Below, one piece after another: positions 6,660 through 35,405 of a stretch of 64,000 bases of DNA. Location: assembly GCA_016839815.1 (NCBI GenBank), contig JAEOTM010000057.1:1-64000 (forward strand), written 5' to 3'. Within the stretch, counting starts at the first letter, position 1. The number at the start of each line of letters is the position of its first letter. The notes beneath the pieces are model-generated. The model was given only the letters and a program-made list of their open reading frames with translations, did no database searches and had not been told where the DNA came from. The translations under genes were made by a program, and so were the position numbers. The stretch is from Candidatus Hodarchaeota archaeon (GTDB lineage Archaea > Asgardarchaeota > Heimdallarchaeia > Hodarchaeales > Hodarchaeaceae).

Positions 6660-7904
6660 TTGGATCATAAAGAAAGGAAAGAATTGCTAGCTGAAGGAGA
6701 AAAAGCCACTCTAATTACTCTACTGAGTAATATAATCATAATTACCTTCAAATTAATAGCAGGAATAGTAATTGGAAGTATCGCATTACTTGCTTCTGCA
6801 TTAGATGCCTTGACCGATATAATTGCATCCCTAGCAGTTTTGTTTGGGTTACGTTTTTCTCAAAAAGATCCTTCTAAACGATTCCCTTACGGATATTATC
6901 GAATGGAAACATTAGCAACATTAATAGTTTCGATATTCATCCTGTTCTTTGGTTTAGATGTAATTTTCATGAGTATACAAGTTGTAAAAACTCCATCTAT
7001 ATTAAATCTTCCAGTGATAGGATTATTAACTTCCCTGATTTCTATTGGCCTTGCTTATGTGCTTTACAGATATAATTTGAGAGTTGGTACAAAAATCGCT
7101 TCGAATGCCTTGACAAGTACCGCAAATGAGTTTAAACTAGATATAATTACAAATTCCCTGGTTTTTTTGGGAATTTTTGGACATTTAATTGACATTCCTC
7201 AATTAGAAGGGTTTGTTGGGTTTATAATAGGATTTGTAATAATCAAGACAGGAATAGAATTTGGAAAAAACTCAATTTTAACATTATTAGATGCAGTTGA
7301 TGATCCTGAAGTAATTGATAAGATAAATGCACTTGTATCAGAATTTAATGAAGTACAGGATGTTTCGAATATCCGAATCAGGCAATCAGGTCCCTATTAT
7401 TTTGCAGATATCAATATCCGAATGGAAGCGACAAGGACAATCAAATCCTTAGCCAGGGTAACTCACTTGTTGGAGTTGTCTTTGAAGAAAAAAATTCCTC
7501 AACTAGATAGTGTTGTGATAAGTGTTGAACCTATAAAGAAAACTAGGCTAAAAATAGCGATTGCTGCACATTCGTTAGAAACAAAAGTTAATGAAGCTCC
7601 TGCGGAGCATTTTGGTCAAGCTCCTGCTTTTCTAATCGCAGATATAGACATTCCTACTCAAACTATACTATCAACCAGACTAATCGACAATCCCCATCGA
7701 TTAGCTGATCGAAAACGGGGTATTTTAGGTGCAGAGTTATTAATTAATGAGGGAATCGACATTCTAGTAACAAAAGACCCCAAAACATTCGGTATTGGAC
7801 CTAAAGCTATTCTTTCGGAAAATAATGTTCAAATTCACCAAGCTCAAGGCAATTCTATTCAAGAAATATTTGAGAATTTCATTCTATTGAATAAAAAAGG
7901 TTAA
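6660..7904 (+). CDS. Cation diffusion facilitator transporter fused to a C-terminal NifX-like domain
   Basis: SIALLASALDALTD, FPYGYYRMETL, TM core; C-terminal EHFGQAPAF...GIGPKA. Confidence 0.9.
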   Translation: MDHKERKELLAEGEKATLITLLSNIIIITFKLIAGIVIGSIALLASALDALTDIIASLAVLFGLRFSQKDPSKRFPYGYYRMETLATLIVSIFILFFGLDVIFMSIQVVKTPSILNLPVIGLLTSLISIGLAYVLYRYNLRVGTKIASNALTSTANEFKLDIITNSLVFLGIFGHLIDIPQLEGFVGFIIGFVIIKTGIEFGKNSILTLLDAVDDPEVIDKINALVSEFNEVQDVSNIRIRQSGPYYFADINIRMEATRTIKSLARVTHLLELSLKKKIPQLDSVVISVEPIKKTRLKIAIAAHSLETKVNEAPAEHFGQAPAFLIADIDIPTQTILSTRLIDNPHRLADRKRGILGAELLINEGIDILVTKDPKTFGIGPKAILSENNVQIHQAQGNSIQEIFENFILLNKKG

Positions 7905-9730: not shown

Positions 9731-10135
9731 GTGTTAGTGACATCAAAATGGATAAAAAACCATCAATCAGCAGTGAATAATGGACGATCAGATGCAGTTA
9801 TAATGGATCTCCCTCCAGAAAAGGGTGATGATGATTATGCAGCTACAGCATTAGAATATGCAGTAATGGCTCTTGCAGGTTGTATTACCACCATCTTTTC
9901 AGTCGTAGCGAAAAATTCTCACGTTGAGATTGCAGATCTTGAAGCAATTGTGGACGCAAAGAAACCTGATGGAGCTTCAACAATAACTGAAGTCAAAATC
10001 AATATAAATGTACACGCAAACGTCCCAGAGGATAAATTAAAACGAATTTTAAGAATTACCCTGAAGCAATGTCCTGTCGAAACTCTTTATCGACAAGCTA
10101 ATATCAAAATGGATATTCAGCTAAATGGGACGTAA
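9731..10135 (+). CDS. OsmC/Ohr family protein
   Basis: ALAGC...QCPV with both family cysteines. Confidence 0.85.
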   Translation: MLVTSKWIKNHQSAVNNGRSDAVIMDLPPEKGDDDYAATALEYAVMALAGCITTIFSVVAKNSHVEIADLEAIVDAKKPDGASTITEVKININVHANVPEDKLKRILRITLKQCPVETLYRQANIKMDIQLNGT

Positions 10136-10323
10136 TAATCGAAATTCTCTAATTCCTTCTCTACTTAGAACACGTAGGGACAACAAAAGAGGGGACACTC
10201 ACACTTTTTCTTTTCAGGTCAATATTTCCAATTTTAATTTGCTATTTAATGGAGGTAAATTATTTGAAAGTAGGTTTAGCTTCAGAAAAAACAAATTTTT
10301 CTTTTGTCTTTGATTTAGATAAA

Positions 10324-10596
10324 ATGGAACAAGAAAATCTAATAATTGATTTGTTAACACATGAAATAAAACCAGATAGAGTATTAGATTGTAGATTACT
10401 CTCATGTCCGATTCCAATTATATGTCTCAGATGTGGAATGAAGAATATTTCAGTTGGACAAATACTGGAACTGCTTGTTACCGATCTTGAATGTATAGAA
10501 TATGTACCACAGTGGTGTAACCATACTGGTAATTATTTTCTAGAGGTAACAGGGAAATGCGGTGAAACACGGTTTTTTATTAGACGGAACAAGTGA
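10324..10596 (+). CDS. TusA/SirA-family sulfurtransferase, Cys-rich (ORF track starts at 10249)
   Basis: LDCRLLSCPIP, GQILELLVTD, WCNHTGN, FFIRR; ATG at 10324 gives a TusA-sized protein; start uncertain. Confidence 0.78.
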   Translation: MEQENLIIDLLTHEIKPDRVLDCRLLSCPIPIICLRCGMKNISVGQILELLVTDLECIEYVPQWCNHTGNYFLEVTGKCGETRFFIRRNK

Positions 10597-10684
10597 AATA
10601 TATAAATTTACATAAGTTATGAAGGAATCATTTCTTGTCCAATATTCGCTCCTTTTGATACAGAAATATCTCTGAAAAAAAAGT

Positions 10685-10759
10685 AAGTGGGTTATTCCGA
10701 GGATGTTTACCCTCATAATCGATTGGCCATCAATTTAATTAAGGATATTTAACCCACTT
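10685..10759 (-). terminator. Branched stem-loop followed by T8 at the 3' end of the qmoC-like operon
   Basis: Perfect 10-bp inverted repeat AAGTGGGTTA/TAACCCACTT enclosing two short hairpins; A-run at about 10675-10682 is a minus-strand T-tract. Confidence 0.55.
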
Positions 10760-10773
10760 TCACCTAAATCTAA

Positions 10774-11913
10774 TTAAGTAGCTATGGATCTAGCTTTTTC
10801 CTTAACCATAGCCAAATATACAGCAAGAGGACGGTAAAGCATGTGCGACCATTTACCGAATGGTACCTCTATTATTAACATAGGTCCAGCTATCATTATA
10901 TGGATTACATAAATTATGTAACTTGGATAGGCTAGATTCATTAGACGAGACAGATGTAGAAATATCCCAGTGGTTGCTGTGAGAAAAAGTAAAATCAAAA
11001 ATAACCAATCAGATAAATGTGAATGCTTATGCATTTGTTCATTCTTTTTATACCGGCTCCACATCGCCTCTAGCGTAACGAAGAGTAACGCAGCTGTAGC
11101 ATAATATCCTAGAAGGGAAGTCATATTCCAGCCTGTGTCATCGACCTGAAAGATATCGATAAAGATCACGACGAGTGAAAAAATGGTAATATACCCTGTT
11201 ACAAGGAAGAGATGTTTTAACCATCTAGTCTTACTATCACAAGAAAGCCATCGATATTGGGCTACGAGACTGAGTCCAGCAAGTATATAGGCTTTGATTT
11301 CTGTGAAATACAATTTAATTGGCACTTTAACACTTTTATCGTTGAGAATTACGAAATAATACATTCTGAATGCATTTGAGAGCAAAAGAAACGCTAAGGT
11401 CCCACCTAAAATGAGATCACCTAAATGAATCCACTCAATAGGGGCAAAACCATCAATTGAAACATTATCCCCTTGCATCTTACTAATCCCAACAAGATTA
11501 GAAACCACAAATATTCCAAGGAAAACGAGAGCTAGGGCTACAAGTGCTCCTATTTCCCATTTTTCTGAGAGATAAAACTTCTTTGATAAGCCAGTCCAAT
11601 CATATCTCGACGTGAGATAACGACGTGTCGCCATCATAAATTCCCCAGGTTCAGCTTCACTTGGACATTGATCAGAACAGTCTCCACAGTAATAACATAA
11701 CCATGGTTCAGGATGGGAAATTAATTTTTCATCTAATCCCAAAACTGCATATCTTATTAATTTCCTAGGAAATTCATTGCCCGATACGGACAGAGGACAT
11801 GAAACTGTGCACATTCCACAATTCATACAAGCTGTCACGTCAAATGCCCCCATCTTTTTAATGTCTTCAAAGACCTGTGTATTAGCAGTAAAACCCTGAT
11901 TAACTACAACCAT
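10774..11913 (-). CDS. QmoC-like subunit (HdrC-type 2x[4Fe-4S] domain + heme b membrane domain), copy 1
   Basis: CMNCGMC..SCP, WLCYYCGDC..CP, several TM helices with conserved His, VPFGKWSHM. Confidence 0.85.
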   Translation of the reverse strand: MVVVNQGFTANTQVFEDIKKMGAFDVTACMNCGMCTVSCPLSVSGNEFPRKLIRYAVLGLDEKLISHPEPWLCYYCGDCSDQCPSEAEPGEFMMATRRYLTSRYDWTGLSKKFYLSEKWEIGALVALALVFLGIFVVSNLVGISKMQGDNVSIDGFAPIEWIHLGDLILGGTLAFLLLSNAFRMYYFVILNDKSVKVPIKLYFTEIKAYILAGLSLVAQYRWLSCDSKTRWLKHLFLVTGYITIFSLVVIFIDIFQVDDTGWNMTSLLGYYATAALLFVTLEAMWSRYKKNEQMHKHSHLSDWLFLILLFLTATTGIFLHLSRLMNLAYPSYIIYVIHIMIAGPMLIIEVPFGKWSHMLYRPLAVYLAMVKEKARSIAT

Positions 11914-11924
11914 CTTAATATCAC

Positions 11925-12233
11925 CTATTTAATCAGCTTATATTTCCAATAATCCTCATCTGTTTTTTCTACAGGTTCGATCAATCGATATCTTAGACTT
12001 GTTGCAACATGCCATAAAACTTCATGAGAAGGAATGCCAGTTTTCACTGAAATCTCAGGAACAGTCATGGTTTCACCTTCCATGGCTTTAAAAATAGCTC
12101 TTTTAATTTTATTATTATGTTTGTTTCGTTCCTTTAACTTCTCACTTACTACTGCTCCAGTTTGTTTTTTATACAGTTTGGCTGTGATAGTCTTCTTCTT
12201 TTTTTCTGATGATTCATTACTTACTTGACTCAT
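11925..12233 (-). CDS. Small winged-helix protein inside the Hdr/Qmo-like operon
   Basis: ATG at 12233 after GGTGA (ORF-track start 12362 overlaps hdrA); MTVPEISVKTGIPSHEVLWHV. Confidence 0.7.
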   Translation of the reverse strand: MSQVSNESSEKKKKTITAKLYKKQTGAVVSEKLKERNKHNNKIKRAIFKAMEGETMTVPEISVKTGIPSHEVLWHVATSLRYRLIEPVEKTDEDYWKYKLIK

Positions 12234-12250
12234 TTGATTTTCACCTTCAG

Positions 12251-13984
12251 TTATGATTTTGCCATGGCTTTGATCATTTCTCGAATTTGTGATGTTGTTA
12301 GAGTCTTTATCTGAATAGCTTCTGTGGGACATACAGCTGTACATATAGCACAGCCTATACATAACGCTTCATTTACAACAGATTTGTTATTTTGAGTCTC
12401 AATAGCATTGGTAGGACATTCAGGGATACACTTTTGATGATTAGAACAGAGATCTGGGTTAACAATTGCAACTGCTGGTTCTAACATCAATTCTCCCCTT
12501 AATACTAAACTAGCAGCTTTTGCTGCCGATGCAGAGGCCGAAGCTAGCGTTTCTGATATATCACGAGGAGATTGAGCCGTACCTGCCAACAGAACGCCCA
12601 TTCTTCCCGTTTCCACTGGCTTCAACTTGGGATGTGATTCCTTGTAGAAACCATCCAATCCAGGAGTAATCTTTACTAATTCTTCCATTCGTTTATTTTC
12701 TCTTGCTTCCATTCCAGTGACAAGTACTAAAAGATCAACAGGAACTGTTATTTTTTCTCCTTCAGTTAGAATATCAGCTACTGTAACATTGATATTATTA
12801 TTAGAATTTACTTCAAGTGGAGTATAAGGATCATATTTCAGAAAAACTGCTCCATTTTCTCTTGCTTGAAGGTAATAAGCTTCATTTTTACCATATGCAC
12901 GAATATCTTGGTAAAAGTGATATGTGTAAAGATTTGGGAAGCTTTTTTGAAGCTCGGCAGTCAGAAAAACTGTCGCATTACAACAATAACGTGAACAATA
13001 CTCGTTTCCTGATTCACCAGCCTCTAAGTTTCTTTGTCTAGAGCCCACACAATATATGAACCCAATTTTGTTAATTTTTTGACCATTATAAGTGAGATTT
13101 TCTTTATATTCACTCTTATTCAGATGAGCCATAAAATCAGGTAACGTTATAATGTTACTATGGGTATTATATCCATATTCTCCATCCTTAGGTACATAAG
13201 ACTTGAAACCAGACGCAACAATAATTATTCCAACAGATTTTTCAGCCACATTTCCAGTAGAATTATTAGTAATCTGGACAACGAAATTACCGATATAACC
13301 AGAGACTCCTGTAACTTCAGAAGAAGTATACATCTCAAGTTTATCTTCGTATTCAACCAGCTGATCAACCATTAAATCACGAATTTCTTTACCAGTTTTA
13401 CCTTCGGGATATGTCTTGTAAATATTCGAAGTATATCCACCAAGGATATCGGCCGATTCAACAAGAACAACCTCGATACCCATTCTGGCCAGATCAACTG
13501 CTGCACGAACACCTGAAATTCCAGCTCCTATTATTAGAACTTTTTTGGTAGTACTCACCTTTATTTTAGCTAAAGGAGAGGTCTGTTTCACGTATTCAAT
13601 TCCAGCATTGACCATACGAATCGCTTTTTCTGTAGCTCCTTTTGGGTCATCTGAATGCGGCCAAGAAGCATCTTCTCTGATGTTCACATGATAGAATTCA
13701 TAAGGATTCAACCCCGCACGTTCGGCAACATTCATAAAAGTGATCTCGTGTAATTTAGGTGAACAAGAGGCTACTACAAGTCCATCAAGATCTAATTCCT
13801 TCACATCATCTACTATCATCTGTTGACCAGCATCAGAACACATAAACATGAAGTCTTTTCCGAGAACGACATTAGGATGATTACCAGCTGCCTCAGAAAC
13901 CGCGGCGACATCCACAACATCTGAAATGTTCCCACCACAATGGCAAATATATACACCTATTCGTTTTTTGAATTCATTTGTCAT
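12251..13984 (-). CDS. hdrA: HdrA-like flavoprotein (QmoB-like half)
   Basis: YICHCGGNI, MCS, SCSP, GAGISG FAD motif, CVGSR..YCSRYCC, C-terminal ferredoxin. Confidence 0.9.
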   Translation of the reverse strand: MTNEFKKRIGVYICHCGGNISDVVDVAAVSEAAGNHPNVVLGKDFMFMCSDAGQQMIVDDVKELDLDGLVVASCSPKLHEITFMNVAERAGLNPYEFYHVNIREDASWPHSDDPKGATEKAIRMVNAGIEYVKQTSPLAKIKVSTTKKVLIIGAGISGVRAAVDLARMGIEVVLVESADILGGYTSNIYKTYPEGKTGKEIRDLMVDQLVEYEDKLEMYTSSEVTGVSGYIGNFVVQITNNSTGNVAEKSVGIIIVASGFKSYVPKDGEYGYNTHSNIITLPDFMAHLNKSEYKENLTYNGQKINKIGFIYCVGSRQRNLEAGESGNEYCSRYCCNATVFLTAELQKSFPNLYTYHFYQDIRAYGKNEAYYLQARENGAVFLKYDPYTPLEVNSNNNINVTVADILTEGEKITVPVDLLVLVTGMEARENKRMEELVKITPGLDGFYKESHPKLKPVETGRMGVLLAGTAQSPRDISETLASASASAAKAASLVLRGELMLEPAVAIVNPDLCSNHQKCIPECPTNAIETQNNKSVVNEALCIGCAICTAVCPTEAIQIKTLTTSQIREMIKAMAKS

Positions 13985-13997
13985 TTCATCAACACTC

Positions 13998-15302
13998 CTA
14001 CATACTACTCTTGTGTGTTTCGATATACGCTAAACACTGTGAAACAGCAGCATTGGCTTCTACTATTGTATCAGGAATATCCTTAGGACCAGTTACACAA
14101 CCCGCTGCAAATATCCCTGGAACATTTGTCTCCACAGGGTTACATAATGGACATTTAATCCATCCTAGCGAGTCAGTTTCCAATTCAACATTTTTAAACA
14201 CTTTAGAGATGCCAGTAATTGAGGGCCATAGACCAACTGCCAAAACAACTAAATCAAAGGCTTCCTCTTTGATTTTTCCTTTATCATCAATGTCCTCATA
14301 TTTTACAATTACATCCCCATTTTCATCTTCATCTACAAACATAATTCTGCCTTTGATAAAGAATGCACCCATATCGCGTGCCTGTTGATAGAATTCTTCA
14401 AAACCCTTCCCTTGTGCTCGAATATCTATATAGAATGAAAAAACATCAGCTAAAGGCAAGGCTCCTAAAATTAATTGAGACTGTTTGATTGAATACATAC
14501 AGCATATTTGTGAACAAAGTTCATTTCCTACCGTTTTATCCCGACTACCGACCCAATACAGGTAGGCAATTTTCCCTGGTTCTTTACCATCAGAAGGTCT
14601 CAATACAGCATTATATGGTCGAGTCGGGGCCAGTAATCGATCCATCTGCATAGCAGTTATGATATTCTTGCTTTTCCCAAAACCAAATTCTGGTTTTAAT
14701 GCTGCATCGAATAGTTCAAACCCAGTTGCAAGCAATATAGATTTTATTCGTACATTTTTTAAAACAGGCTTTTGAAGAAAATTGATTGCGGAAGTCGGAC
14801 AAACTTTTTCGCACTGTCCACAGAATATACAGTTATCAATATCGATTACGGATTTCTTTGGAACTGCGATATCAAAAGCAATGTACACTGCCTTTCGGCC
14901 TCGCATATGATATTGAAATTCATCACTAACTATTACTGGGCATTCCATTTCACATAAAGAACATCCTGTACAATCATCCCATTCTACATATTTTGGTTTT
15001 TGAACGATTTTGGCGGTAAAATTAGCTTCCTCGTGCTTTACGACTTCTTCAATCTCAGAATAAGCTGAAAGCGTTATATTAGGATGATATACAGCACTCG
15101 CCATTTTAGGAGTGGCAATACAAGCTGAACAATCAAGCGTAGGAAATACTTTACTTAGTTGGGCCATGATTCCTCCTACTGTAGGAGATTTATCTACGAG
15201 TAGGACTTTTCCACCTGCATCACCAAGAGTTAGAGCAGCTTCTATACCTGCAATACCTGCTCCAATAATCAATGTATCATAATCTTCATAATCTTCAGTC
15301 AT
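13998..15302 (-). CDS. hdrA: HdrA-like flavoprotein (QmoA-like half with inserted ferredoxin)
   Basis: GAGIAG, FPTLDCSACI, two CxxCxxCxxxCP, WVGSRD..LCSQICC, GPKDIPDT. Confidence 0.9.
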   Translation of the reverse strand: MTEDYEDYDTLIIGAGIAGIEAALTLGDAGGKVLLVDKSPTVGGIMAQLSKVFPTLDCSACIATPKMASAVYHPNITLSAYSEIEEVVKHEEANFTAKIVQKPKYVEWDDCTGCSLCEMECPVIVSDEFQYHMRGRKAVYIAFDIAVPKKSVIDIDNCIFCGQCEKVCPTSAINFLQKPVLKNVRIKSILLATGFELFDAALKPEFGFGKSKNIITAMQMDRLLAPTRPYNAVLRPSDGKEPGKIAYLYWVGSRDKTVGNELCSQICCMYSIKQSQLILGALPLADVFSFYIDIRAQGKGFEEFYQQARDMGAFFIKGRIMFVDEDENGDVIVKYEDIDDKGKIKEEAFDLVVLAVGLWPSITGISKVFKNVELETDSLGWIKCPLCNPVETNVPGIFAAGCVTGPKDIPDTIVEANAAVSQCLAYIETHKSSM

Positions 15303-15318
15303 AATAACACCCTTTGGA

Positions 15319-15726
15319 TTAAGTACTAGCTAACTCCTGCAATTTTTCAGAAAAGGTTTTTACATGATTTAAAAATGGTTCAACACAAACAGAACATATA
15401 GCAGCCATTTTTAATCTATTTACATCAATATTATGACTTTCCAGAAGTTCTATTGCTTCACGTATTCGATCAGAAGTTTTTTGAGGACATTCCTCAGTAA
15501 AAGGACAATCTCCCCCATCTGCGGTGATGAATACACCATCAAAACCACTCTGAAGTGCAAGAAGAACATAATCAGCTCTTACCATGCTTGAACAAGGAAC
15601 TCGAATAATTGAGGTTGAAGGAGAATAATGCCTGTGTAATAATCCAGTTTGGTCAACAGCTGGATCAGAGATTAAATTTGTTGTAAATATAAGAATTTTC
15701 GGTTTTACTTTCTCACTACTGGTCAT
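15319..15726 (-). CDS. mvhD: Divergent MvhD-like Fe-S subunit
   Basis: IRVPCSS, GFDGVFI, DCPF, RLKMAAICSVC; MvhD layout without the N-terminal CxxC. Confidence 0.78.
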   Translation of the reverse strand: MTSSEKVKPKILIFTTNLISDPAVDQTGLLHRHYSPSTSIIRVPCSSMVRADYVLLALQSGFDGVFITADGGDCPFTEECPQKTSDRIREAIELLESHNIDVNRLKMAAICSVCVEPFLNHVKTFSEKLQELAST

Positions 15727-15789
15727 CTACATCACATAACTCGTCTAATTAGAGAAACTCTGACTCTTTGTCGATTTTCTTTAGATTTG

Positions 15790-15828
15790 TAAAATAAAAA
15801 AAGAAAGGGGAAGGAAACTACCTCTTTC
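15790..15828 (-). terminator. Intra-operon hairpin + T-tract after tusA
   Basis: Minus strand GAAAGAGG...CCCCTTTC followed by TTTTTTTATTTT. Confidence 0.5.
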
Positions 15829-15839
15829 GTTAAACACAC

Positions 15840-16088
15840 TCAACGTTTTCGTCTAACAAATATTTTGAAGTAACCTTTACCTTCAGCGTCACCTAAATAT
15901 TCATGGCCAATCTTTTTGCACCAAAGGGGGATATCTCTTTTTGTACCTGCATCCGCAGACCAAACTTCGAGAACACCATCCATAGGAACCTTTGTCATCG
16001 CTTTTTTAGCAGCTAATAAAGGGCCTGGACAACTCTCAGCACGGGCATCAACCAAGTGATCTGATTTCATGTTTTCTACATCGGTCAT
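15840..16088 (-). CDS. tusA: TusA-family sulfurtransferase
   Basis: VDARAESCPGP, DIPLWC. Confidence 0.92.
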   Translation of the reverse strand: MTDVENMKSDHLVDARAESCPGPLLAAKKAMTKVPMDGVLEVWSADAGTKRDIPLWCKKIGHEYLGDAEGKGYFKIFVRRKR

Positions 16089-16117
16089 TTTTTATCACCA
16101 TTTCAATTTCTTTGCAT

Positions 16118-16540
16118 CTAAATAAAGTAAGTTGCTTTTGATTGGGTGCTAGTCCATACAATTTCTCCAGCACCGACAATATCATCGACATATTCTAAAT
16201 TTTCCAAATCTGCACTCCAAGCTTTACCGCAAGCAGCACAAACGTAAATTTTTACTTGTCCCATTTCTTTAGCTTGTTTGATCATCTCGTACCAAGGGGA
16301 AATGCCACCTCTCATAATGAGTTCTTTGAATTTCTCATCGGTATATTCGAGATGTTCACTTAGTGTGTTATCTTTTCCAATAACATCCTTCTTGAAGGCA
16401 TAGGTCCCCCATAGCATGAGATAGATATCAACAGAATAATCCATCGCTATAGCGGCATTTGTTAGAATAGCCATGCCAATAAGTCTATCTATTGTTCCAG
16501 AAAATACAACCATTGTAATCTTTTCTTCTTCTGCTTCCAT
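16118..16540 (-). CDS. DsrE/DsrF/DrsH-like sulfur-transfer protein
   Basis: MVVFSGTIDR, AMDYSV..LMLWG, KIYVCAAC, IVGAGE. Confidence 0.85.
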   Translation of the reverse strand: MEAEEEKITMVVFSGTIDRLIGMAILTNAAIAMDYSVDIYLMLWGTYAFKKDVIGKDNTLSEHLEYTDEKFKELIMRGGISPWYEMIKQAKEMGQVKIYVCAACGKAWSADLENLEYVDDIVGAGEIVWTSTQSKATYFI

Positions 16541-16916
16541 TTCTATACAACTCTCATCGATTTAACAAGAAAAACTGTATTTTTTCTGAAAATTAAGTTG
16601 TTAATTGTGCGCTAATAACTCTCCGTTTTTAACTTTTCGTCTCAAGTCACAATATAGTTATCTTAAGTCATAGCGGAAATTTATTTTGCTCAATTTCGCG
16701 AATAGAAGTACTATATGTAACAAGAGAACTATCTATTGTGAATAAATATGTAAAATAGAGGACAGAAGGTTTTTAACAATATTTGATTTACGTTGTTAAC
16801 TCGACGTAAATAACTTGGGGTTATTAGCATGTAGCAAAAAAAACTGTAAAACCCCTAAAAGCTATTTACATTGGGTAATTTAAAAACAAACCAATAAAAC
16901 ATAGGATAGATATAGA

Positions 16917-17150
16917 ATGGTCGATATAGACATGACATTGGACTGCAAAGGCTTATCCTGTCCAATGCCTATCGTGAAATTAAACGCAGCTATCAAAAAG
17001 CTAGAAGTAGGACAAGTTCTAGAGATGCTCGGAACTGATCCTGGATCAAAGAAAGACGTACCCTTGTGGTGCAAGCGAAAAGGCAATGAAGTACTAGAGA
17101 CAAGCGAAGACGGCGGTATTTTTAGATTTATTATCCAACGTAAAAAATGA
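16917..17150 (+). CDS. tusA: TusA-family sulfurtransferase (YeeD-like)
   Basis: LDCKGLSCPMP, TDPGS, WC. Confidence 0.93.
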   Translation: MVDIDMTLDCKGLSCPMPIVKLNAAIKKLEVGQVLEMLGTDPGSKKDVPLWCKRKGNEVLETSEDGGIFRFIIQRKK

Positions 17151-17159
17151 GGTAATTTT

Positions 17160-18350
17160 ATGTCAGAAAAAGGAATGTTTTCAGAAGTATACGAAGTATT
17201 ATTTGGTGACTCATGGAAGATGTGGGTTGGCGCAATCATTCTCTCCTTCCTCAGCCTATCACTCTGGTTCTTCTTTGGACCTTGGGGTGCTACAGGTGGC
17301 TATATCTGGTGGGGCAATGAAGTTTTTAATCTCATTGGTGACAGAATGGTTGAAATAGTCCCTGGTGTTAATTCAGGCTGGGAAAATTACGCCTACCTGA
17401 ACATGCTAATTTTGGTTGGTGCTTTTGCCAGTGCATTATTAGCTAAAGAATTTGCCATTCGCATTCCACCAGTTGGTGAGCTTGTTAAAGGTCTAATCGG
17501 TGGTCTTTTAATGGGTATTGGAGCTGTAATTGGTGGTGGCTGTACTATTGGTGGATTCTATAGTGGTTGGCCCGCTCTAAGTGCAGCTGGATTGTTTATC
17601 GTATTAGGTTTCGTGATTGGAGTTTTCATTGCTGTACGATATCTTCTTTGGGAAGCTGATAAATATCCAGGTATCAGTTCAGGTGAATCCAAAAGCTTCT
17701 TAGCTGGTGGCAGTTGGCAACCAATCGTAGGATTCATTGTACTGGTTGCTGGTTTTGGAGTGTTACTTATCTTTGACGTAGCTACTCAGCTATCCATAAT
17801 TGGTGCTGTATTCATAGGTCTTCTCATAGGTTTTGTACTCCAACGATCTCGTTTTTGTATTGTTCGAGCTTTACGAGAACCTTTCATGACTGGTGAAGCT
17901 GCTCCTGCAAAAGCTGTAATGGTCGGTCTTTTGGTTGGTCTTGTTGGTTTTCTTGCAATGAAAGTATCTGGCACTGGTGCAGCACTGACAATGGTTGCAG
18001 GGAGCTTCTTTATACCTGCACTTTTAGGTGGAACCATTTTCGGTCTTGGTATGACAGTAGCTGGTGGTTGTGTTGTCGGTTCCTTATGGCGAAGTGGAGA
18101 AGGCCAAGTAAAATTATGGTTCTCCGTTCTCGGCCTTACCTTTGGTACTCTCTTCACAGTTGAATTCTTGAAAGAACCAGTTTATGATTTGTTCGAACCC
18201 ACTAAAGAATTCCTTCCCACCATGCTCAACGATGATCCAGCATCTTTAATTGGTTTCTTCCTCGCAGCTCTAGTCATACTAGCTGTTATTGCAATCTGGT
18301 ATATCATTGTTTCTTGGAATGAACGCACTGGTAAACTCCAACAGATGTAA
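17160..18350 (+). CDS. yeeE: YeeE/YedE family thiosulfate/sulfur transporter
   Basis: Gly-rich TM protein with GGCTIG, SRFC and AGGCVVG cysteine motifs; directly after tusA. Confidence 0.9.
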   Translation: MSEKGMFSEVYEVLFGDSWKMWVGAIILSFLSLSLWFFFGPWGATGGYIWWGNEVFNLIGDRMVEIVPGVNSGWENYAYLNMLILVGAFASALLAKEFAIRIPPVGELVKGLIGGLLMGIGAVIGGGCTIGGFYSGWPALSAAGLFIVLGFVIGVFIAVRYLLWEADKYPGISSGESKSFLAGGSWQPIVGFIVLVAGFGVLLIFDVATQLSIIGAVFIGLLIGFVLQRSRFCIVRALREPFMTGEAAPAKAVMVGLLVGLVGFLAMKVSGTGAALTMVAGSFFIPALLGGTIFGLGMTVAGGCVVGSLWRSGEGQVKLWFSVLGLTFGTLFTVEFLKEPVYDLFEPTKEFLPTMLNDDPASLIGFFLAALVILAVIAIWYIIVSWNERTGKLQQM

Positions 18351-18551: not shown

Positions 18552-19334
18552 ATGGACAATTTTAGTTGTAGTTTAGATCATCCCATATTTGAGATCCTGT
18601 CCAATAAAACACGTTTAGAAATTCTCCGGATGATTGCGTGTGAGCAAAATTATGGGAGTAGAATCGCCTCCATTCTGAATATTTCTGCTCCTGCTATCCA
18701 TCGTCATCTCAAATTTCTCTCTCAGGATATGAAAGATGACAATATGGAGGATTTTTCATATATCAAACCCTCTTACAAGACAAGTGAAAGCTATTCAGGT
18801 CATAAAGGTGCTGAAGCTACAGTGTATGAAATTGGAACCAAGATGTATTTTTCTTTTGCGTTATACCCAAATTTTATTCAATCTCATGCTTTCCTTGTAG
18901 CTGCTGAAGCATCTTTAAGTGATAACAACTCTAATAACATTGAAGATGAAATACTTGACTATAAGAAAGATATGAAACATATTTCTAATGGTAGAATAGA
19001 AGAATACTCCAAGTTATTCAGCAAAATCCAAGAAAAAAACGAAAAAATTAGAACTCTGGAAAGTCAGATTATGAATATTTTGGAAGAAAAAAATGAACTT
19101 ATGAAAGATATCGACTCCTCTATCCAGAAAAGTTCCTCACTTTCATTTGACGAACGAGTCAGCTTACGTCTGATGGCTTGTCAAGGACCAGTATGCATTC
19201 CTAATTTACCAGAACTTCTTCGTCAGGATGTTGAAGTTACGAAGAAAAATCTCTTAAACCTTAAACTCAGAGGCTGGTTTTCAAAATTTGAAGACGAAAT
19301 CCAGAATGGAATCAAAAATATTCCAGAGGTTTAA
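18552..19334 (+). CDS. ArsR-family regulator with coiled-coil C-terminal extension
   Basis: FEILSNKTRLEILRMI, IASILNISAPAIHRHLKFL; heptad region; several Cys. Confidence 0.82.
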   Translation: MDNFSCSLDHPIFEILSNKTRLEILRMIACEQNYGSRIASILNISAPAIHRHLKFLSQDMKDDNMEDFSYIKPSYKTSESYSGHKGAEATVYEIGTKMYFSFALYPNFIQSHAFLVAAEASLSDNNSNNIEDEILDYKKDMKHISNGRIEEYSKLFSKIQEKNEKIRTLESQIMNILEEKNELMKDIDSSIQKSSSLSFDERVSLRLMACQGPVCIPNLPELLRQDVEVTKKNLLNLKLRGWFSKFEDEIQNGIKNIPEV

Positions 19335-19744: not shown

Positions 19745-20617
19745 TTACTCAGAGAGCTTATCCAAAAAGGGTTGGACTTTGATACTGTGCATCTTGAACC
19801 CCGTACTGAAATCCATACCCATTGTCAGGCCAAGAAGTTCCCCGAAGAAAAATACAGGAAGAGTGGTCTTTTCAAACTCTTTAGCCATTAAACGTTGGCC
19901 AGTGTCGTAGGAAATGAAACAAGTAGGACAAACTGTGACCAATGCATCGGCTTGTGCCATCTCTGCTCCGACAATCTTTTCATGAGCTATTTTTAAAGCC
20001 GTATCTTTATCTGTAGGTCTTGTACCAGCACCACAACAAGCGAGTTTGTTTAAATATGGGACTGATTCAGCACCTAAAGCTTCCACGAGATGATCAAGTT
20101 TTACTGGCATCTCAGGATTGTCAACTTGCATGATTTCAGGTGGTTTGAGGAAGTGACAGCCATTATGTGTTGCAAGTTTGATTCCAGATAGGGGTTTCCC
20201 AACTTGTTGTGCTATCCTATCTATTCCAATTTCAGTATAGAGAAATTCCGCAAAGTGATTGACTTGGATGGAACCCTTGAATTCCTTGCCAACCTCTTTT
20301 AGATTCTCGTTGACTTTCTTTTTCAGATCAGGATCACTCTTCAAACGCTCGTTAACCATTTTGAGTGTTTCAAAACAACCACTACACGCGGTAAGAATGT
20401 CAAGTCCCTGTTCTTCAGCCAGACAGATGTTACGAGCAGCCAATGTGTGCCATGCAACATTATCAAATGCTTGAACACCACCAGGATCTGGACAACAAGC
20501 AAAGGGGAGATCTACCAATTCTACGTCAAATTCTGGCATAGTTTTCCGCAATGAAGTTTCAATAAACGGAACGCGGTAGGGTATTGTACAACCAATAAAA
20601 AATGCATATTTTGACAT
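19745..20617 (-). CDS. hdrB: Heterodisulfide reductase subunit B
   Basis: FFIGC, ACCP, ACSGC, HNGCH, ACCGAG, VCPTC (two CCG domains). Confidence 0.95.
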   Translation of the reverse strand: MSKYAFFIGCTIPYRVPFIETSLRKTMPEFDVELVDLPFACCPDPGGVQAFDNVAWHTLAARNICLAEEQGLDILTACSGCFETLKMVNERLKSDPDLKKKVNENLKEVGKEFKGSIQVNHFAEFLYTEIGIDRIAQQVGKPLSGIKLATHNGCHFLKPPEIMQVDNPEMPVKLDHLVEALGAESVPYLNKLACCGAGTRPTDKDTALKIAHEKIVGAEMAQADALVTVCPTCFISYDTGQRLMAKEFEKTTLPVFFFGELLGLTMGMDFSTGFKMHSIKVQPFLDKLSE

Positions 20618-21114
20618 TAGGCTACATCCTCCTTTAGACTACTTAATTTTGTTGTCACACCCGTTATATCCATGAGTTTCTGTATCTCATTCATATCAGG
20701 AGCTGGAACTTCAGGTAATCCGAGTTTTTCTCTACGCTTCATAACAGATTGAGATTTACCTGCCGTGATACCAGTTTCTAAGATTGCAGTCATTTCCGCA
20801 ATAATCCCTTCTGGAGCATTTTTGACTTTCACAGCCATATTTTTCATCTCAAAAATTACATGTGCAATGTCTATCTCTTGAGGGCACCTGGTACTACAAG
20901 TGAAACATCCTGTACAATACCAGATTCGCTGTTCATCAAATACTTCTTGTTTAAATTCTCCAGCGAGTAATTTCTCCATTATTCGTCTGGGATTAAAACT
21001 CGAATACTGCTTGAATACTGGGCATCCACCCGCACAGGTACCACATTGGTAGCAAAGCTTCACTTTTTCGTAAAGATGTTGAAAATCACTAATGAGTTCT
21101 GTTGATTCAGTCAT
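20617..21114 (-). CDS. hdrC: Heterodisulfide reductase subunit C
   Basis: CYQCGTCAGGCP, IWYCTGCFTCSTRCP. Confidence 0.95.
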   Translation of the reverse strand: MTESTELISDFQHLYEKVKLCYQCGTCAGGCPVFKQYSSFNPRRIMEKLLAGEFKQEVFDEQRIWYCTGCFTCSTRCPQEIDIAHVIFEMKNMAVKVKNAPEGIIAEMTAILETGITAGKSQSVMKRREKLGLPEVPAPDMNEIQKLMDITGVTTKLSSLKEDVA

Positions 21115-21139
21115 TTGTTATTTCACCTTGTTTCACTAA

Positions 21140-23566: not shown

Positions 23567-23569
23567 CTT

Positions 23570-25027: not shown

Positions 25028-25947
25028 TATTCTTTCTTCTCCTTAATTTTTCCAAGTTTAGAGTAGGCAAACTGATGTTGGTACATCACAGATACTGGAT
25101 CATTTCCCATTGCTTCGAAGACCTGTTCAACTCCAACTTGACTGGCTAATGTTCCCAAAAAGGATGAAGTATCTACTCCAGGATCAGTACCTTTCTCTGG
25201 ATCGGGATTCAATGGACCGTGACATCCACGACAAGGTACACCAACTTTGGTACATCTCGCATCACATAATCCCCAGGTAACTGGACCTACACAAATATAT
25301 CCCTGCTCTAAAAAGCATTTATCAGGATCAATTTCTTCTCCAGCAGATTTGTACCAACGTTTCAGTTCAGTAATTTTATCATGACTCTTTTCTCTTGGAC
25401 ATGGTTCACAAACAGACTGATTTGGCAGATTTAAAGGTTCTCCATTTAACAAAGCCATAACACCAGTAGCTATCAACTCTGGTACAGGTGGACAACCTGG
25501 AACCACAACATCAACATCAATGACAGATGAAAGTGGAAGCACTTTTTCTGTTAAGGGAGGAACATCGTCTCTAGGCTCTCTACCTAAAGGATTATCTAAA
25601 CCCATACAATTACCAGGATAATAGACTTTATCAAATATTTCCTCGCGTGTGTATAAATTACCTAGTCCAGGGGTCCCGCCAAAGCAGGCACATGACCCCA
25701 AAGAGACGATTATCTTACAGTTTTTCCGCATTTCTTTAGCTACGTGAATATTATGCTCATTCCTTATTCCTCCTGTGATAATTCCCACATCTGCAGGAAC
25801 AAATTCTTTCACATCGGCAAGAACAGGAGATCGCACTATATCAGCTTTAGCTAGTACGTCAAGAATAGCTTCATGAATATCCAGTAGCGATATATGACAG
25901 CCACTGCATACCATTAACCACTCAGTCGCGACTCTTGCTTTACTCAT
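25027..25947 (-). CDS. mvhG: [NiFe]-hydrogenase small subunit
   Basis: CSGCH, GSCACFGG, PGCPP, CEPCPR, CFLEQGYIC, CRGC. Confidence 0.95.
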   Translation of the reverse strand: MSKARVATEWLMVCSGCHISLLDIHEAILDVLAKADIVRSPVLADVKEFVPADVGIITGGIRNEHNIHVAKEMRKNCKIIVSLGSCACFGGTPGLGNLYTREEIFDKVYYPGNCMGLDNPLGREPRDDVPPLTEKVLPLSSVIDVDVVVPGCPPVPELIATGVMALLNGEPLNLPNQSVCEPCPREKSHDKITELKRWYKSAGEEIDPDKCFLEQGYICVGPVTWGLCDARCTKVGVPCRGCHGPLNPDPEKGTDPGVDTSSFLGTLASQVGVEQVFEAMGNDPVSVMYQHQFAYSKLGKIKEKKE

Positions 25948-26211
25948 ATTAAATATCCTCTTATTAATTAATATTAATTATTGATAGATCTAGGGGTAAA
26001 AATAGTGTTAAGATCTATTCTTTTTACATATAGATGGCCAATCTACTGAATTTTGACACAAGAGAATTTTATATTAATATATCTGTAACTATTGTTAAAT
26101 TCTGAGCAAAAACGTCCATTTAGATTTATCTACACAGAGTCAGATTGTATACAATATAGTTATAATGTCACATCTTCTACTAAGCGGAAAAGTATTCTTC
26201 TCTCGAACGAA

Positions 26212-28615: not shown

Positions 28616-28632
28616 TTCCTATCACTACTCCT

Positions 28633-31752: not shown

Positions 31753-31769
31753 TTTTTCTTCCTCACATA

Positions 31770-34443: not shown

Positions 34444-34468
34444 TGTGATTCAACAGCTAACTATTTTT

Positions 34469-35170: not shown

Positions 35171-35216
35171 TGGAAATCCCTTGTAAAAGTAGAAGTAGTT
35201 TCTTGTTATGAGAAGT

Positions 35217-35375: not shown

Positions 35376-35405
35376 ATTGATTCCTTCTATCTGTACGCTT
35401 ATCTC

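What the first reader, a model, noticed from the sequence alone, without database searches (positions are those of the whole stretch)
9731..18350. Qmo-like membrane Hdr complex embedded in a sulfur-relay cluster, with no AprAB and no HdrB of its own
Seen: operon dsrE-tusA-mvhD'-hdrA(434 aa)-hdrA(577 aa)-wHTH-qmoC-like, with divergent tusA-yeeE on one side and osmC-tusA on the other. No aprAB, sat or dsrAB is in the window. Established: QmoABC links the quinone pool to AprAB; TusA and DsrE carry persulfides; YeeE with YeeD imports and processes thiosulfate; the sHdr sulfur-oxidation complex uses HdrC1B1A-hyp-C2B2 and has no QmoC. Inference: this is a different architecture in which imported sulfur on TusA/DsrE is coupled through HdrA flavins to a membrane heme b subunit, i.e. 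a candidate persulfide:quinone oxidoreductase.
Basis: partly seen in the sequence, partly recalled or inferred. Interest (0 to 1): 0.75.

Follow-up and report, generated by a model that had tools for sequence, protein, structure and literature searches.

The report
TusA-linked Qmo-like membrane redox complex
An Asgard (Hodarchaeales) archaeon carries a tight operon for a membrane-anchored flavin/iron-sulfur/haem complex that resembles the Qmo complex of sulfate reducers but is wired to small sulfur-carrier proteins instead of APS reductase; the same uncharacterised module is widespread in anaerobic bacteria and probably moves electrons between the quinone pool and carrier-bound sulfur.

Summary
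On the minus strand, 16540-10774 encodes DsrE3-like, TusA, a variant MvhD, two complementary HdrA paralogues, a winged-helix protein and a QmoC-like subunit. It is flanked by tusA-yeeE and osmC-tusA.

The MAG (89.5% complete) shows no AprA, DsrA, Sat, DsrC or NIR_SIR sulfite reductase. The subunits do not group with canonical QmoABC.

The core TusA-MvhD'-HdrA-HdrA-QmoC recurs in 27 of the 80 best-scoring related loci, across about ten bacterial phyla and Asgard archaea. DsrE-family genes lie beside it in about 17 to 21 of those 27 (counts differ by method). Only 7 of the 27 genomes have AprA over the family cut-off.

New here: the TusA-linked MvhD has a degenerate canonical cysteine set and an invariant CxxC (24/24 against 0/33). 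Sister operons carry MvhAG or an HdrD-like protein where TusA sits.

Caveats: an HdrB, an HdrD-like gene and a second QmoC paralogue lie in neighbouring operons. YeeE linkage is local. No catalytic site or direction is shown.

Best reading: a quinone-linked oxidoreductase for carrier-bound sulfane sulfur, probably reductive. This scan has noted the family on other DNA (99 notes, at least 83 genomes). It is a new variant of a known kind.

The parts
16118..16540 (-). DsrE3-like sulfur transferase, 140 aa, first gene of the operon
   Evidence: Pfam DsrE/DrsE_2. The best PDB sequence match is 2qs7, E 4e-19, with the conserved Cys aligned (VKIYVCAAC). Orthologues at 68-75% identity lead the operon in three other Asgard loci (L003, L006, L098); weaker relatives (28-35%) lie beside Bacteroidales operons.
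15840..16088 (-). TusA sulfur carrier, 82 aa (operon copy)
   Evidence: Pfam TusA, 68 bits. The CPGP active-site Cys and the flanking motif VDAR..CPGPLL.AKK are kept in all 24 aligned orthologues from this architecture.
15319..15726 (-). MvhD variant (MvhD'), 135 aa, with a rearranged cysteine set
   Evidence: Pfam FlpD, 87 bits. The AF2 model (pLDDT 85.5) superposes on MvhD 5odc_D (TM 0.84, rmsd 1.7 A). The canonical CxxC and GCHxxDCH cysteines are lost or variable. IC(S/T/G)VC (C111, C114) is invariant in 24/24 TusA-linked copies and absent from 33 other MvhD domains.
13998..15302 (-). HdrA paralogue A (QmoA-shaped), 434 aa: FAD core plus an inserted 2x[4Fe-4S] ferredoxin domain
   Evidence: It aligns to residues 146-561 of solved HdrA, E 6e-108. 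DCxxC, 8 ferredoxin Cys and CSxxCC are invariant in 26 orthologues, but the first Cys of CxGSRD is missing.
12251..13984 (-). HdrA paralogue B (QmoB-shaped but with no fused MvhD), 577 aa: N-terminal Fe-S domain, FAD core without the insert, C-terminal ferredoxin
   Evidence: It aligns to solved HdrA in two stretches that skip the inserted ferredoxin, E 7e-118. The N-terminal 4 Cys, CVGSR..CSxxCC and C-terminal ferredoxin Cys are invariant, and DCxxC is lacking.
11925..12233 (-). Small winged-helix protein, about 102 aa, no cysteine
   Evidence: No Pfam or NCBIfam hit. The AF2 model has pLDDT 84.7 and three helices plus a beta hairpin. The Foldseek top hits are SmtB, NolR, MarR and Z-alpha, all weak (E about 2e-3 to 2e-2). 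It is conserved directly upstream of QmoC in TusA-linked and MvhAG-linked operons.
10774..11913 (-). QmoC-like membrane subunit, 379 aa: HdrC-like 2x[4Fe-4S] domain plus a 5-6 helix membrane domain with conserved His
   Evidence: NF038018 qmoC matches full length at 167.9 bits against a 300-bit cut-off. The N-terminus resembles HdrC. 8 Cys and H234, H320, H338 and H357 are conserved in 80-84 of 84 relatives, and hydropathy suggests 5-6 helices.
16541..16916 (.). Divergent promoter region with two phased triplets of GTT-n3-AAC-type boxes
   Evidence: Exact boxes lie at 16625, 16769 and 16792. With one mismatch allowed, triplets appear at 16597/16611/16625 and 16792/16806/16820, spaced 14 bp. 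This is one of only two places in the 4.24-Mb MAG with 3 exact boxes within 250 bp. One exact box lies about 90-130 bp upstream of dsrE in all four Asgard loci.
16917..17150 (+). TusA/YeeD-like carrier, 77 aa
   Evidence: Pfam TusA, 93.7 bits. NCBIfam scores for TusA (54.8) and YedF (52.9) are nearly equal.
17160..18350 (+). YeeE/YedE-family membrane transporter, 396 aa
   Evidence: Pfam Sulf_transp. It matches Spirochaeta YeeE 6leo in two halves, with the RxC and two GGC cysteine motifs aligned. NCBIfam YedE/FdhT scores 113 bits and TsuA 89 bits, both under their cut-offs.
18552..19334 (+). ArsR-type, SurR-like regulator, 260 aa
   Evidence: Pfam HTH_5. The best solved relative is PF0095 (2qlz), E 8e-5 over residues 11-145, and the position of its CxxC reads CEQN here. 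Orthologues follow the operon in L003, L006 and L098.
9731..10135 (+). OsmC-family protein, convergent with the operon
   Evidence: Pfam OsmC, 55 bits, and a weak match to 'OsmC-related (seleno)protein'. The same OsmC-TusA pair lies behind QmoC in a congeneric genome (L102).
10249..10596 (+). Third TusA-family protein (domain at residues 45-113 of the ORF)
   Evidence: Pfam TusA, 58 bits. The CPxP Cys is kept (CPIP).

Best explanation
The seven-gene operon encodes a membrane complex. A QmoC-like subunit (dihaem b plus two [4Fe-4S] clusters) connects the quinone pool to an asymmetric heterodimer of two complementary HdrA-type flavoproteins. A variant MvhD acts as the adaptor to the substrate.

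The substrate is sulfane sulfur carried as a persulfide, or a related adduct, on the operon's own TusA. TusA is loaded by the DsrE3-like transferase.

I propose that the invariant CxxC of the MvhD variant attacks the TusA persulfide, releases sulfide and forms a disulfide. The HdrA pair then re-reduces that disulfide with electrons from menaquinol and possibly from reduced ferredoxin. The reaction would be a carrier-bound sulfur:quinone oxidoreductase, about 60:40 reductive over oxidative.

Shown: gene content, cofactor motifs, conservation of the architecture, the cysteine pattern, absence of apr/dsr/sat, and the operator boxes.

Inferred: that the subunits form one complex, that TusA is the substrate carrier, the role of the CxxC, the quinone coupling and the direction.
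For: 1. TusA leads the MvhD'-HdrA-HdrA-(wHTH)-QmoC core in 27 of the 80 best-scoring related loci. These come from Asgard archaea and about ten bacterial phyla.
2. DsrE-family proteins with a conserved Cys lie beside about 17 to 21 of the 27. ArsR-type regulators lie beside 13, and rhodanese beside 2.
3. Sister operons with the same HdrA clades and the same QmoC family carry MvhG-MvhA, or an HdrD-like CCG protein, where TusA/DsrE sit here. Their MvhD then has the canonical cysteines. TusA therefore occupies the slot of a redox-substrate module.
4. The MvhD variant keeps the MvhD fold, has a degenerate [2Fe-2S] cysteine set and carries an invariant CxxC between a strand and a helix N-cap. The motif is present in 24/24 TusA-linked copies and in none of 33 others. 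In a search of 1.84 billion representatives, the 12 best hits all show it, and no canonical MvhD motif appears among the 40 best.
5. The genome has no AprA, DsrA, Sat, DsrC or NIR_SIR enzyme, so only sulfane/sulfide-level chemistry is left. Only 7 of the 27 carrier genomes have AprA over the cut-off, and 7 have DsrA. In one of them canonical aprBA-qmoABC sits elsewhere.
6. MenA is present (123 bits against a cut-off of 102). 20 of the 21 other Asgard genomes with a QmoC-like gene have a MenA-family hit, against 130 of all 301 sampled.
7. Phased GTT-n3-AAC boxes and a SurR-like regulator sit at the divergent promoter. In Thermococcales, SurR controls the switch to sulfur reduction (my knowledge of that system).
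Against: - No HdrB/HdrD-type catalytic site is in the operon, and the HdrA pair has no extra conserved cysteine.
- The CxxC could simply be new ligands for a relocated Fe-S cluster.
- Menaquinol is a poor reductant for persulfide on standard potentials, so the reductive direction needs a second low-potential donor that is not identified.
- YeeE linkage is not conserved outside this genus plus one locus.
- The regulator lacks SurR's CxxC.
- No expression data exist.
- A later check on an earlier scan finding of this family preferred an oxidative reading for a Bacteroidales host that also has AprAB, classical QmoABC and SQR.
- The MAG is 89.5% complete, so the absences are not proof.
Confidence: 0.5

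Rival explanations
1. Same complex and same carrier, but run oxidatively. Sulfide or sulfane sulfur is oxidised on the TusA/DsrE relay. The electrons enter the quinone pool through the HdrA pair and QmoC, possibly with flavin-based bifurcation to ferredoxin. This would be a cytoplasmic, carrier-based counterpart of SQR or of the entry steps of sHdr.
For: - DsrE3-TusA pairs are the delivery cascade of the sulfur-oxidising sHdr system (PMC11094781).
- The one printed mention of an Hdr/TST/TusA/transporter cluster reads it as oxidation (PMC8542988).
- Some carrier genomes also have AprAB and DsrAB.
- Hodarchaeales are reported to have quinone-dependent respiratory chains (bioRxiv 10.1101/2024.07.04.601786).
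Against: - No enzyme to take sulfur beyond the sulfane level was found in this genome.
- There is no HdrB/C or LbpA in the operon.
- A SurR-type operator is known from sulfur-reduction regulons (my knowledge).
- No site for sulfide oxidation is evident.
Confidence: 0.22
2. A general Qmo/Hdr-type electron-transfer module (type II Qmo) links quinone, ferredoxin and an unidentified partner. TusA and DsrE are not substrates. They serve cofactor or Fe-S sulfur supply, sensing or regulation of the complex.
For: - Type II Qmo proteins occur with and without Apr/Dsr, and their role is called open (PMC10504309).
- The same QmoC family serves several other heads: MvhAG, HdrD-like and HdrC fusions.
- No catalytic sulfur site is proven.
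Against: - TusA is the first or second gene in 27 of 27 operons of this architecture.
- A dedicated TusA subfamily is conserved.
- The MvhD cysteine change tracks TusA perfectly.
- Biosynthetic sulfur supply would not need a dedicated carrier in every operon.
Confidence: 0.15
3. A protein-disulfide or thiol-stress system. The complex reduces a TusA-DsrE (or other) mixed disulfide, or supports OsmC-type peroxide detoxification. Alternatively it handles selenium rather than sulfur, on the YedE/YedF model.
For: - OsmC lies next to the operon here and in a congener, and is weakly like 'OsmC-related (seleno)protein'.
- YeeE scores best against the selenium protein YedE/FdhT.
- The tusA next to yeeE scores equally as YedF.
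- A CxxC is also the hallmark of thiol-disulfide oxidoreductases.
Against: - OsmC and YeeE linkage are local, not family-wide.
- All scores against the selenium models are far under their cut-offs.
- DsrE3-TusA pairs are established sulfur carriers (PMC11094781).
Confidence: 0.08

Closest known systems
Canonical (type I) QmoABC of sulfate reducers and green sulfur bacteria
   Same: - There are two HdrA-derived flavoproteins, one short with the inserted ferredoxin and one long with N- and C-terminal Fe-S domains.
- There is an MvhD-type module.
- The membrane subunit combines an HdrC-like di-cluster domain with a multi-helix haem b domain.
- No HdrB is present.
   Different: - QmoC scores 168 bits against the 300-bit cut-off, and sits on a long separate branch.
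- The HdrA paralogues fall outside the QmoA/QmoB clade.
- MvhD is a separate protein with a different cysteine set.
- An extra winged-helix gene is present.
- TusA/DsrE take the place of aprBA.
- Canonical aprBA-qmoABC coexists with this module in one Desulfobacterales genome.
'Type II' QmoABC (Ammonifex degensii, 'Ca. Vulcanisaeta moutnovskia'; Neukirchen et al. 2023, PMC10504309)
   Same: The Qmo-like subunits are closer to ordinary hdrA than to bacterial qmoAB. They occur in organisms with or without Apr/Dsr. Their function is declared open.
   Different: The reference sequences could not be fetched, so membership is untested. That paper does not describe linkage to TusA/DsrE, the MvhD CxxC variant or the winged-helix gene.
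Mvh-HdrABC and related bifurcating Hdr complexes (PDB 5odc, 8rvu, 7bkb)
   Same: The HdrA fold and cofactor motifs match (E 1e-107 to 1e-118). The MvhD fold matches (TM 0.84). MvhD serves as the adaptor between HdrA and the donor module.
   Different: - HdrA is split into two complementary halves.
- There is no HdrBC.
- The high-potential side is a membrane QmoC-like subunit.
- MvhD has lost the canonical [2Fe-2S] cysteines.
sHdr-LbpA sulfur oxidation system with its DsrE3/TusA/rhodanese cascade (PMC11094781, PMC6067878)
   Same: DsrE3-like and TusA carriers are encoded with an Hdr-derived redox complex.
   Different: - There is no HdrB1/B2, HdrC1/C2 or LbpA in the operon.
- There are two HdrA paralogues, not one.
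- A membrane QmoC-like subunit is present.
- The host shows no route to sulfite or sulfate.
YTD cluster (yedE-tusA-dsrE plus chp1-3) of sulfur disproportionators (PMC12998232, PMC13047784)
   Same: A YeeE/YedE transporter, a TusA/YeeD carrier and a DsrE-like protein are encoded together.
   Different: No Hdr/Qmo genes belong to YTD. Its conserved hypothetical proteins were not identified here. Here yeeE-tusA form a separate, divergent transcription unit.
SurR regulon of Thermococcales (PF0095; PDB 2qlz, 2quf)
   Same: GTT-n3-AAC-type boxes lie at the promoters of sulfur-related operons, and the adjacent regulator's best solved relative is SurR.
   Different: The similarity is weak (E 8e-5). 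SurR's redox CxxC reads CEQN here. The target genes are different.

Membership tests
Canonical QmoABC | QmoC reaches the NCBIfam equivalog score (NF038018, 300 bits) | tested here: not met
   167.9 bits, full-length match. Canonical QmoC from three sulfate-reducer genomes scores 416-495 bits.
Canonical QmoABC | QmoA and QmoB group with canonical QmoA/QmoB in a tree | tested here: not met
   Canonical QmoA plus QmoB form their own clade (SH-aLRT 100). The window's paralogues fall in clades with MvhAG-linked HdrAs and nearer to ordinary HdrA.
Canonical QmoABC | Genomic or functional link to APS reductase AprBA | tested here: not met
   No AprA in the MAG. AprA is over the cut-off in 7 of 27 carrier genomes. 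In G002, aprBA sits beside canonical qmoABC and not beside this module.
Canonical QmoABC | QmoB carries a C-terminal MvhD domain | tested here: not met
   The long HdrA is 577 aa and ends after the C-terminal ferredoxin. MvhD' is a separate upstream gene.
Canonical QmoABC | QmoC architecture: HdrC-like 2x[4Fe-4S] domain plus a multi-helix membrane domain with His ligands for haem b | tested here: met
   8 Cys are invariant. H234, H338 and H357 are shared with canonical QmoC, and H320 is conserved in the family. There are 5-6 hydrophobic helices. Haem binding itself was not tested.
Type II Qmo (PMC10504309) | QmoAB closer to ordinary hdrA than to bacterial qmoAB; found with or without Apr/Dsr | tested here: met
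   Tree. The best NCBIfam hits are HdrA2/HdrA. Apr/Dsr are absent here and in most carriers.
Type II Qmo (PMC10504309) | Same clade as the Ammonifex degensii and Vulcanisaeta moutnovskia proteins | not tested
   The reference sequences could not be obtained by name with these tools.
HdrABC / Mvh-Hdr | HdrB (two CCG domains, non-cubane clusters) and HdrC in the complex | tested here: not met
   There is no CCG-domain gene in the operon or in the 27 related loci. HdrB and HdrC in the window (19745-21114) belong to the separate mvhGA-hdrA operon.
HdrABC / Mvh-Hdr | MvhD with the canonical [2Fe-2S] cysteine set | tested here: not met
   The first CxxC and GCHxxDCH are lost or variable, and a new invariant CxxC is present.
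sHdr sulfur oxidation system | hdrC1B1A-hyp-C2B2 plus LbpA | tested here: not met
   None of these is in the operon. A GcvH (163 bits, a true GcvH by score) lies 17 kb away beside another operon.
sHdr sulfur oxidation system | Accompanying DsrE3/TusA sulfur transferases | tested here: met
   A DsrE3-like protein (2qs7, E 4e-19) and a TusA with a CPGP Cys are present.
YTD cluster | yedE, tusA and dsrE together with conserved hypothetical proteins chp1-3 | tested here: inconclusive
   yeeE, tusA and dsrE are present. chp1-3 have no model here, and no candidate was seen. Orthology to the YTD orthologous groups was not tested.
TusA family | Conserved active-site Cys in a CPxP motif | tested here: met
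   CPGP in the operon copy and in all 24 orthologues; CPIP and CPMP in the two flanking copies.
YeeE/TsuA thiosulfate importer | Three conserved cysteines and the NCBIfam TsuA score | tested here: inconclusive
   The cysteine motifs align to 6leo. TsuA scores 76-89 bits against cut-offs of 400-645, and YedE/FdhT scores higher at 113 bits.
SurR-type regulation | GTT-n3-AAC operator boxes plus a SurR-like regulator with a redox CxxC | tested here: inconclusive
   The boxes are clustered and phased. The regulator resembles SurR only weakly, and its CxxC is not kept.

The most novel reading that the evidence does not exclude
The MvhD variant's CxxC is a new catalytic site that lets an Hdr-superfamily complex cleave S-S bonds without HdrB. 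With it, the complex would be a flavin-based electron-confurcating or -bifurcating reductase for carrier-bound sulfur, tied to the quinone pool. That would be an undescribed mode of cytoplasmic sulfur respiration. It would be shared by many uncultured anaerobes, passed by gene transfer between Bacteroidota-like bacteria and Asgard archaea, and switched in Hodarchaeales by a SurR-like regulator.
Probability: 0.2. Interest if true: 0.8.

Novelty: new variant of a known kind. Interest (0 to 1): 0.6.

Why it matters
If the reading holds, three things follow.
- Many uncultured anaerobes, including close archaeal relatives of eukaryotes, have a cytoplasmic route that couples protein-bound zero-valent sulfur to the membrane quinone pool. 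That route is absent from current sulfur-cycle gene catalogues.
- The Hdr/Qmo superfamily would work as a modular core: an HdrA pair plus QmoC, with exchangeable substrate heads (AprAB, MvhAG, HdrD-like, TusA/MvhD').
- Hodarchaeales would gain a sulfur-linked branch of energy metabolism, in up to three copies in this MAG, with its own operator and regulator pair that can be tested at the bench.

Tried and rejected
- Neighbourhoods came from the search for related loci and the genome search instead.
- **Literature.** Searches for 'Qmo-like'+TusA and for 'QmoC-like' returned nothing. Asgard+QmoC gave two irrelevant papers. The HdrA review 10.1016/j.bbabio.2021.148379 is not held.
- **Expression.** No RNA holder was listed for the locus. 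There are only four DNA runs from one marine-sediment study.
- **Quinone synthesis.** The futalosine-pathway genes MqnA/D and MqnC were not found. Only MenA supports quinone synthesis.
- **HdrA cysteines.** I looked for an extra conserved cysteine in the HdrA pair that could act on sulfur and found none.
- **Winged-helix protein.** Foldseek gave only weak generic wHTH matches, and no known redox-complex subunit.
- **Rejected: canonical Qmo with apr elsewhere.** The refutation tests failed.
- **Rejected: the neighbouring HdrBC belongs to this complex.** It sits in a standard mvhGA-hdrACB operon. The adjacency recurs only on contig C25 of this MAG; no HdrB was found within the up-to-10-kb flanks of L003 or L006.
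- **Unresolved.** Contigs C25 and C189 could be one organism or two co-binned strains. Their GC is alike and contamination is 7.8%.

Full report
**What is there.**

The minus strand from 16540 to 10774 carries seven tightly spaced genes, with gaps of 11-113 bp:
- a DsrE-family protein (140 aa)
- TusA (82 aa)
- an MvhD/FlpD protein (135 aa)
- an HdrA of 434 aa
- an HdrA of 577 aa
- a small ORF
- a 379-aa QmoC-like protein

The small ORF most likely starts at M44 of the 145-aa frame, giving 102 aa at 12233-11925.

A TusA-YeeE pair lies upstream and divergent (16917-18350), followed by an ArsR-type regulator (18552-19334). OsmC and a third TusA lie downstream and convergent (9731-10596).

It is 89.5% complete with 7.8% contamination.

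**Anatomy of the subunits.**

Against solved HdrA, the 434-aa protein covers residues 146-561: the FAD core plus the inserted di-cluster ferredoxin. The 577-aa protein has the N-terminal Fe-S domain, the FAD core without the insert, and the C-terminal ferredoxin.

Across 26 orthologue pairs the two are reciprocally incomplete:
- The short one keeps DCxxC and CSxxCC but lacks the first Cys of CxGSRD.
- The long one keeps CVGSR..CSxxCC but lacks DCxxC.

This predicts an obligate heterodimer. No further conserved cysteine exists in either.

The QmoC-like protein has eight invariant Fe-S cysteines. It has four conserved histidines in a 5-6-helix membrane domain. It matches the qmoC model end to end, but at 168 bits against a cut-off of 300.

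The small protein has no family hit. It folds with confidence as a winged helix.

**The MvhD variant.**

The model superposes on MvhD of the Mvh-Hdr complex (TM 0.84). Its canonical cysteines are lost or differ from lineage to lineage; two Chloroflexota copies keep none of them.

An IC(S/T/G)VC motif is invariant in all 24 TusA-linked copies. It is absent from 33 MvhD domains of other operon types, of HdrA fusions and of canonical QmoB. In the model it lies between strand 105-109 and the N-cap of helix 115-134.

A profile search of 1.84 billion representatives supports this. The 12 best hits all carry the motif, none of the 40 best carries a canonical MvhD motif, and canonical MvhDs appear further down the list.

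The first-stage reader had flagged this cysteine pattern in a separate note on this window. I tested it across families.

**Is it a true Qmo?** No.
- In one Desulfobacterales genome, canonical aprB-aprA-qmoA-qmoB-qmoC (QmoC 495 bits) sits elsewhere on the same contig that carries this module.
- In the QmoC tree the whole QmoC-like family is separated from canonical QmoC by a long branch.
- In the HdrA tree, canonical QmoA and QmoB form their own clade. The window's two paralogues fall in clades shared with hydrogenase-linked operons and lie nearer to ordinary HdrA.
- The MAG shows no AprA, DsrA, Sat, DsrC or NIR_SIR protein.

The module fits the description of 'type II' Qmo, whose role Neukirchen et al. 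left open (PMC10504309). I could not place the reference sequences.

**Conservation.**

At least 594 loci in species-representative genomes encode a QmoC-like relative. Among the 80 best:
- 27 have TusA-MvhD'-HdrA-HdrA-(wHTH)-QmoC. They come from Hodarchaeota- and Hermodarchaeota-labelled MAGs, Planctomycetota, Chloroflexota, Bacteroidota, Thermodesulfobacteriota, Verrucomicrobiota, Acidobacteriota and others.
- About 17 to 21 of the 27 have a DsrE-family gene with a conserved Cys alongside; clustering gave 21 and a direct BLAST gave 17 loci.
- 13 of the 27 have an ArsR-type regulator, and 9 have a sigma-54 activator.
- YeeE is linked only here, on contig C25 and in one Bacteroidales locus.
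- Only 7 of the 27 genomes have AprA over the cut-off, and 7 have DsrA.

Other operon types use the same QmoC family:
- HdrA/MvhD-MvhG-MvhA-HdrA-wHTH-QmoC in Acidobacteriota
- an HdrD-like protein with a fused double HdrA, MvhD and QmoC in Promethearchaeota
- QmoC fused to an HdrC-like domain in Desulfobacterales

The HdrA pair plus QmoC therefore behaves as a core with exchangeable heads, and TusA/DsrE stand where a hydrogenase or a CCG protein stands elsewhere.

**In this genome and its relatives.**

The window itself holds the HdrD-like type: 32897-27009, whose QmoC is 76% identical to the first. Directly after it come hycI, mvhG, mvhA, hdrA-mvhD, hdrC and hdrB, down to 19745.

Contig C25 repeats the whole neighbourhood at 54-92% amino-acid identity, with the TusA operon inverted relative to tusA-yeeE. 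Contig C45 carries a third, divergent TusA-linked operon with a DsrE and an Lrp-type regulator beside it. Whether C25 belongs to the same cell or to a co-binned relative is open.

In a sample of 301 Asgard genomes, 22 have a QmoC-like gene, counting this MAG, and 8 of the 21 other species of this genus do. Both HdrA paralogues of the Asgard operons are sister to those of Bacteroidales, which share the same DsrE type. This points to transfer of the whole operon between domains.

**Regulation.**

Following it, I found two 14-bp-phased triplets of GTT-n3-AAC-type boxes in the divergent promoter: 16597/16611/16625 and 16792/16806/16820.

This is one of only two places in the MAG with three exact boxes within 250 bp. 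An exact box lies upstream of dsrE in all four Asgard loci. Two more exact boxes lie upstream of the HdrD-like operon (32981, 33103).

The neighbouring regulator's best solved relative is PF0095, the SurR of Pyrococcus (E 8e-5). Its CxxC reads CEQN here.

**How it most likely works.**

Shown:
- the parts
- their cofactor motifs
- their conservation
- the TusA-specific CxxC
- the lack of any sulfite- or sulfate-level enzyme
- MenA in the genome, and a MenA-family hit in 20 of the 21 other QmoC-bearing Asgard genomes

Inferred: DsrE3 loads TusA with sulfane sulfur. The MvhD' dithiol takes it and releases sulfide. The HdrA heterodimer re-reduces the disulfide, and QmoC ties this to the quinone pool.

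Because menaquinol is a weak reductant for persulfide, a second low-potential donor such as ferredoxin is likely. Otherwise the complex runs the other way, from sulfide to quinone. I give the general function 0.5 and prefer the reductive direction about 60:40.

The weakest points are these:
- No catalytic site is proven.
- The CxxC may instead be a cluster ligand pair.
- There are no expression data.
- A later check of a related scan finding favoured an oxidative reading in a host with an oxidiser's gene set.

**What is known.**

Nearest in print:
- type II Qmo (PMC10504309)
- a one-paragraph mention of an Hdr/rhodanese/TusA/transporter cluster in Cloacimonadota, read as sulfur oxidation (PMC8542988)
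- the sHdr carrier cascade (PMC11094781)
- the YTD cluster (PMC12998232, PMC13047784)

I found no description of the TusA-MvhD'-HdrA-HdrA-wHTH-QmoC operon or of the CxxC variant. A preprint on Hodarchaeales energy metabolism does not mention Qmo or TusA. The library lacks most subscription journals.

This scan has noted the same family many times on other DNA: 99 notes in at least 83 genomes. The family-level novelty is therefore not specific to this window.

New for this window:
- the Asgard host
- the multiple copies
- the pairing with a second Qmo-like operon
- the SurR-like operator
- the family-wide test of the MvhD cysteine switch

Noticed in passing
window 27009-32897 (-): There is a second Qmo-like operon. 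It encodes an HdrD-like protein (Fer4 + 2 CCG, 375 aa), a fused double HdrA (1039 aa), a canonical MvhD (148 aa) and a QmoC paralogue 76% identical to the first. The same operon occurs in Promethearchaeota (L004, L005). The two QmoCs are near-copies, while their HdrA partners are only 30-40% identical.
   Followed up: partly
window 19745-26733 (-): This is a standard hydrogenase/heterodisulfide reductase operon: hycI, mvhG, mvhA, hdrA-mvhD fusion (808 aa), hdrC, hdrB. It abuts the sulfur-carrier genes. The same adjacency recurs on contig C25.
   Followed up: partly
window 32981 and 33103; 33276-33659 (+): Two exact GTT-n3-AAC boxes lie in the promoter region shared by the HdrD-like operon and a lone GcvH gene (163 bits, above the GcvH cut-off). 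ccmABC-type cytochrome c maturation genes follow at 33754-36179.
   Followed up: no
G000 contig C25 (L098:2295-17407) and contig C45 (L099:8882-15919): C25 repeats the whole cluster at 54-92% amino-acid identity, with the TusA operon inverted. C45 holds a third, divergent TusA-MvhD'-HdrA-HdrA-wHTH-QmoC operon (QmoC 31% identical) with DsrE and an Lrp-type regulator. Whether C25 is a true paralogous copy or a co-binned strain is unresolved.
   Followed up: partly
L037, L047, L064, L071, L072, L082 (short-HdrA orthologues of 903-962 aa): In several bacterial operons the short HdrA carries an insert of about 470 aa. Earlier scan notes identify it as a GltD/NfnB-like NAD(P)H module (HdrL type). 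I did not test this.
   Followed up: no
L008-L030 and others, e.g. L022:10001-11326 (Desulfospira joergensenii DSM 10085): In Desulfobacterales the QmoC-like protein is fused to an HdrC-like domain (760-850 aa). It is followed by HdrA-like proteins of about 1130 aa and by MvhD. This type occurs in a cultured strain, which could serve as an experimental entry to the QmoC-like family.
   Followed up: no
L109, L111, L112, L123 (other Asgard genomes): MvhA lies directly upstream of a QmoC-like gene. This suggests hydrogenase-QmoC units without an intervening HdrA.
   Followed up: no
window 17160-18350 (+): The two halves of the YeeE-like protein match the solved Spirochaeta YeeE in swapped order: query 217-330 matches chain 6-117, and query 74-159 matches chain 240-324. 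Either the repeat order is permuted or this is cross-matching of the internal repeat.
   Followed up: no
window 6660-7904 (+): A cation-efflux (CDF) transporter carries a C-terminal dinitrogenase FeMo-cofactor-binding-type domain (Nitro_FeMo-Co, E 1e-9). This is an unusual fusion.
   Followed up: no
window 58359-59768 (+): A 469-aa protein has a weak match to DmsE-family decahaem cytochromes. It sits in the same window as the ccm genes of an Asgard archaeon.
   Followed up: no
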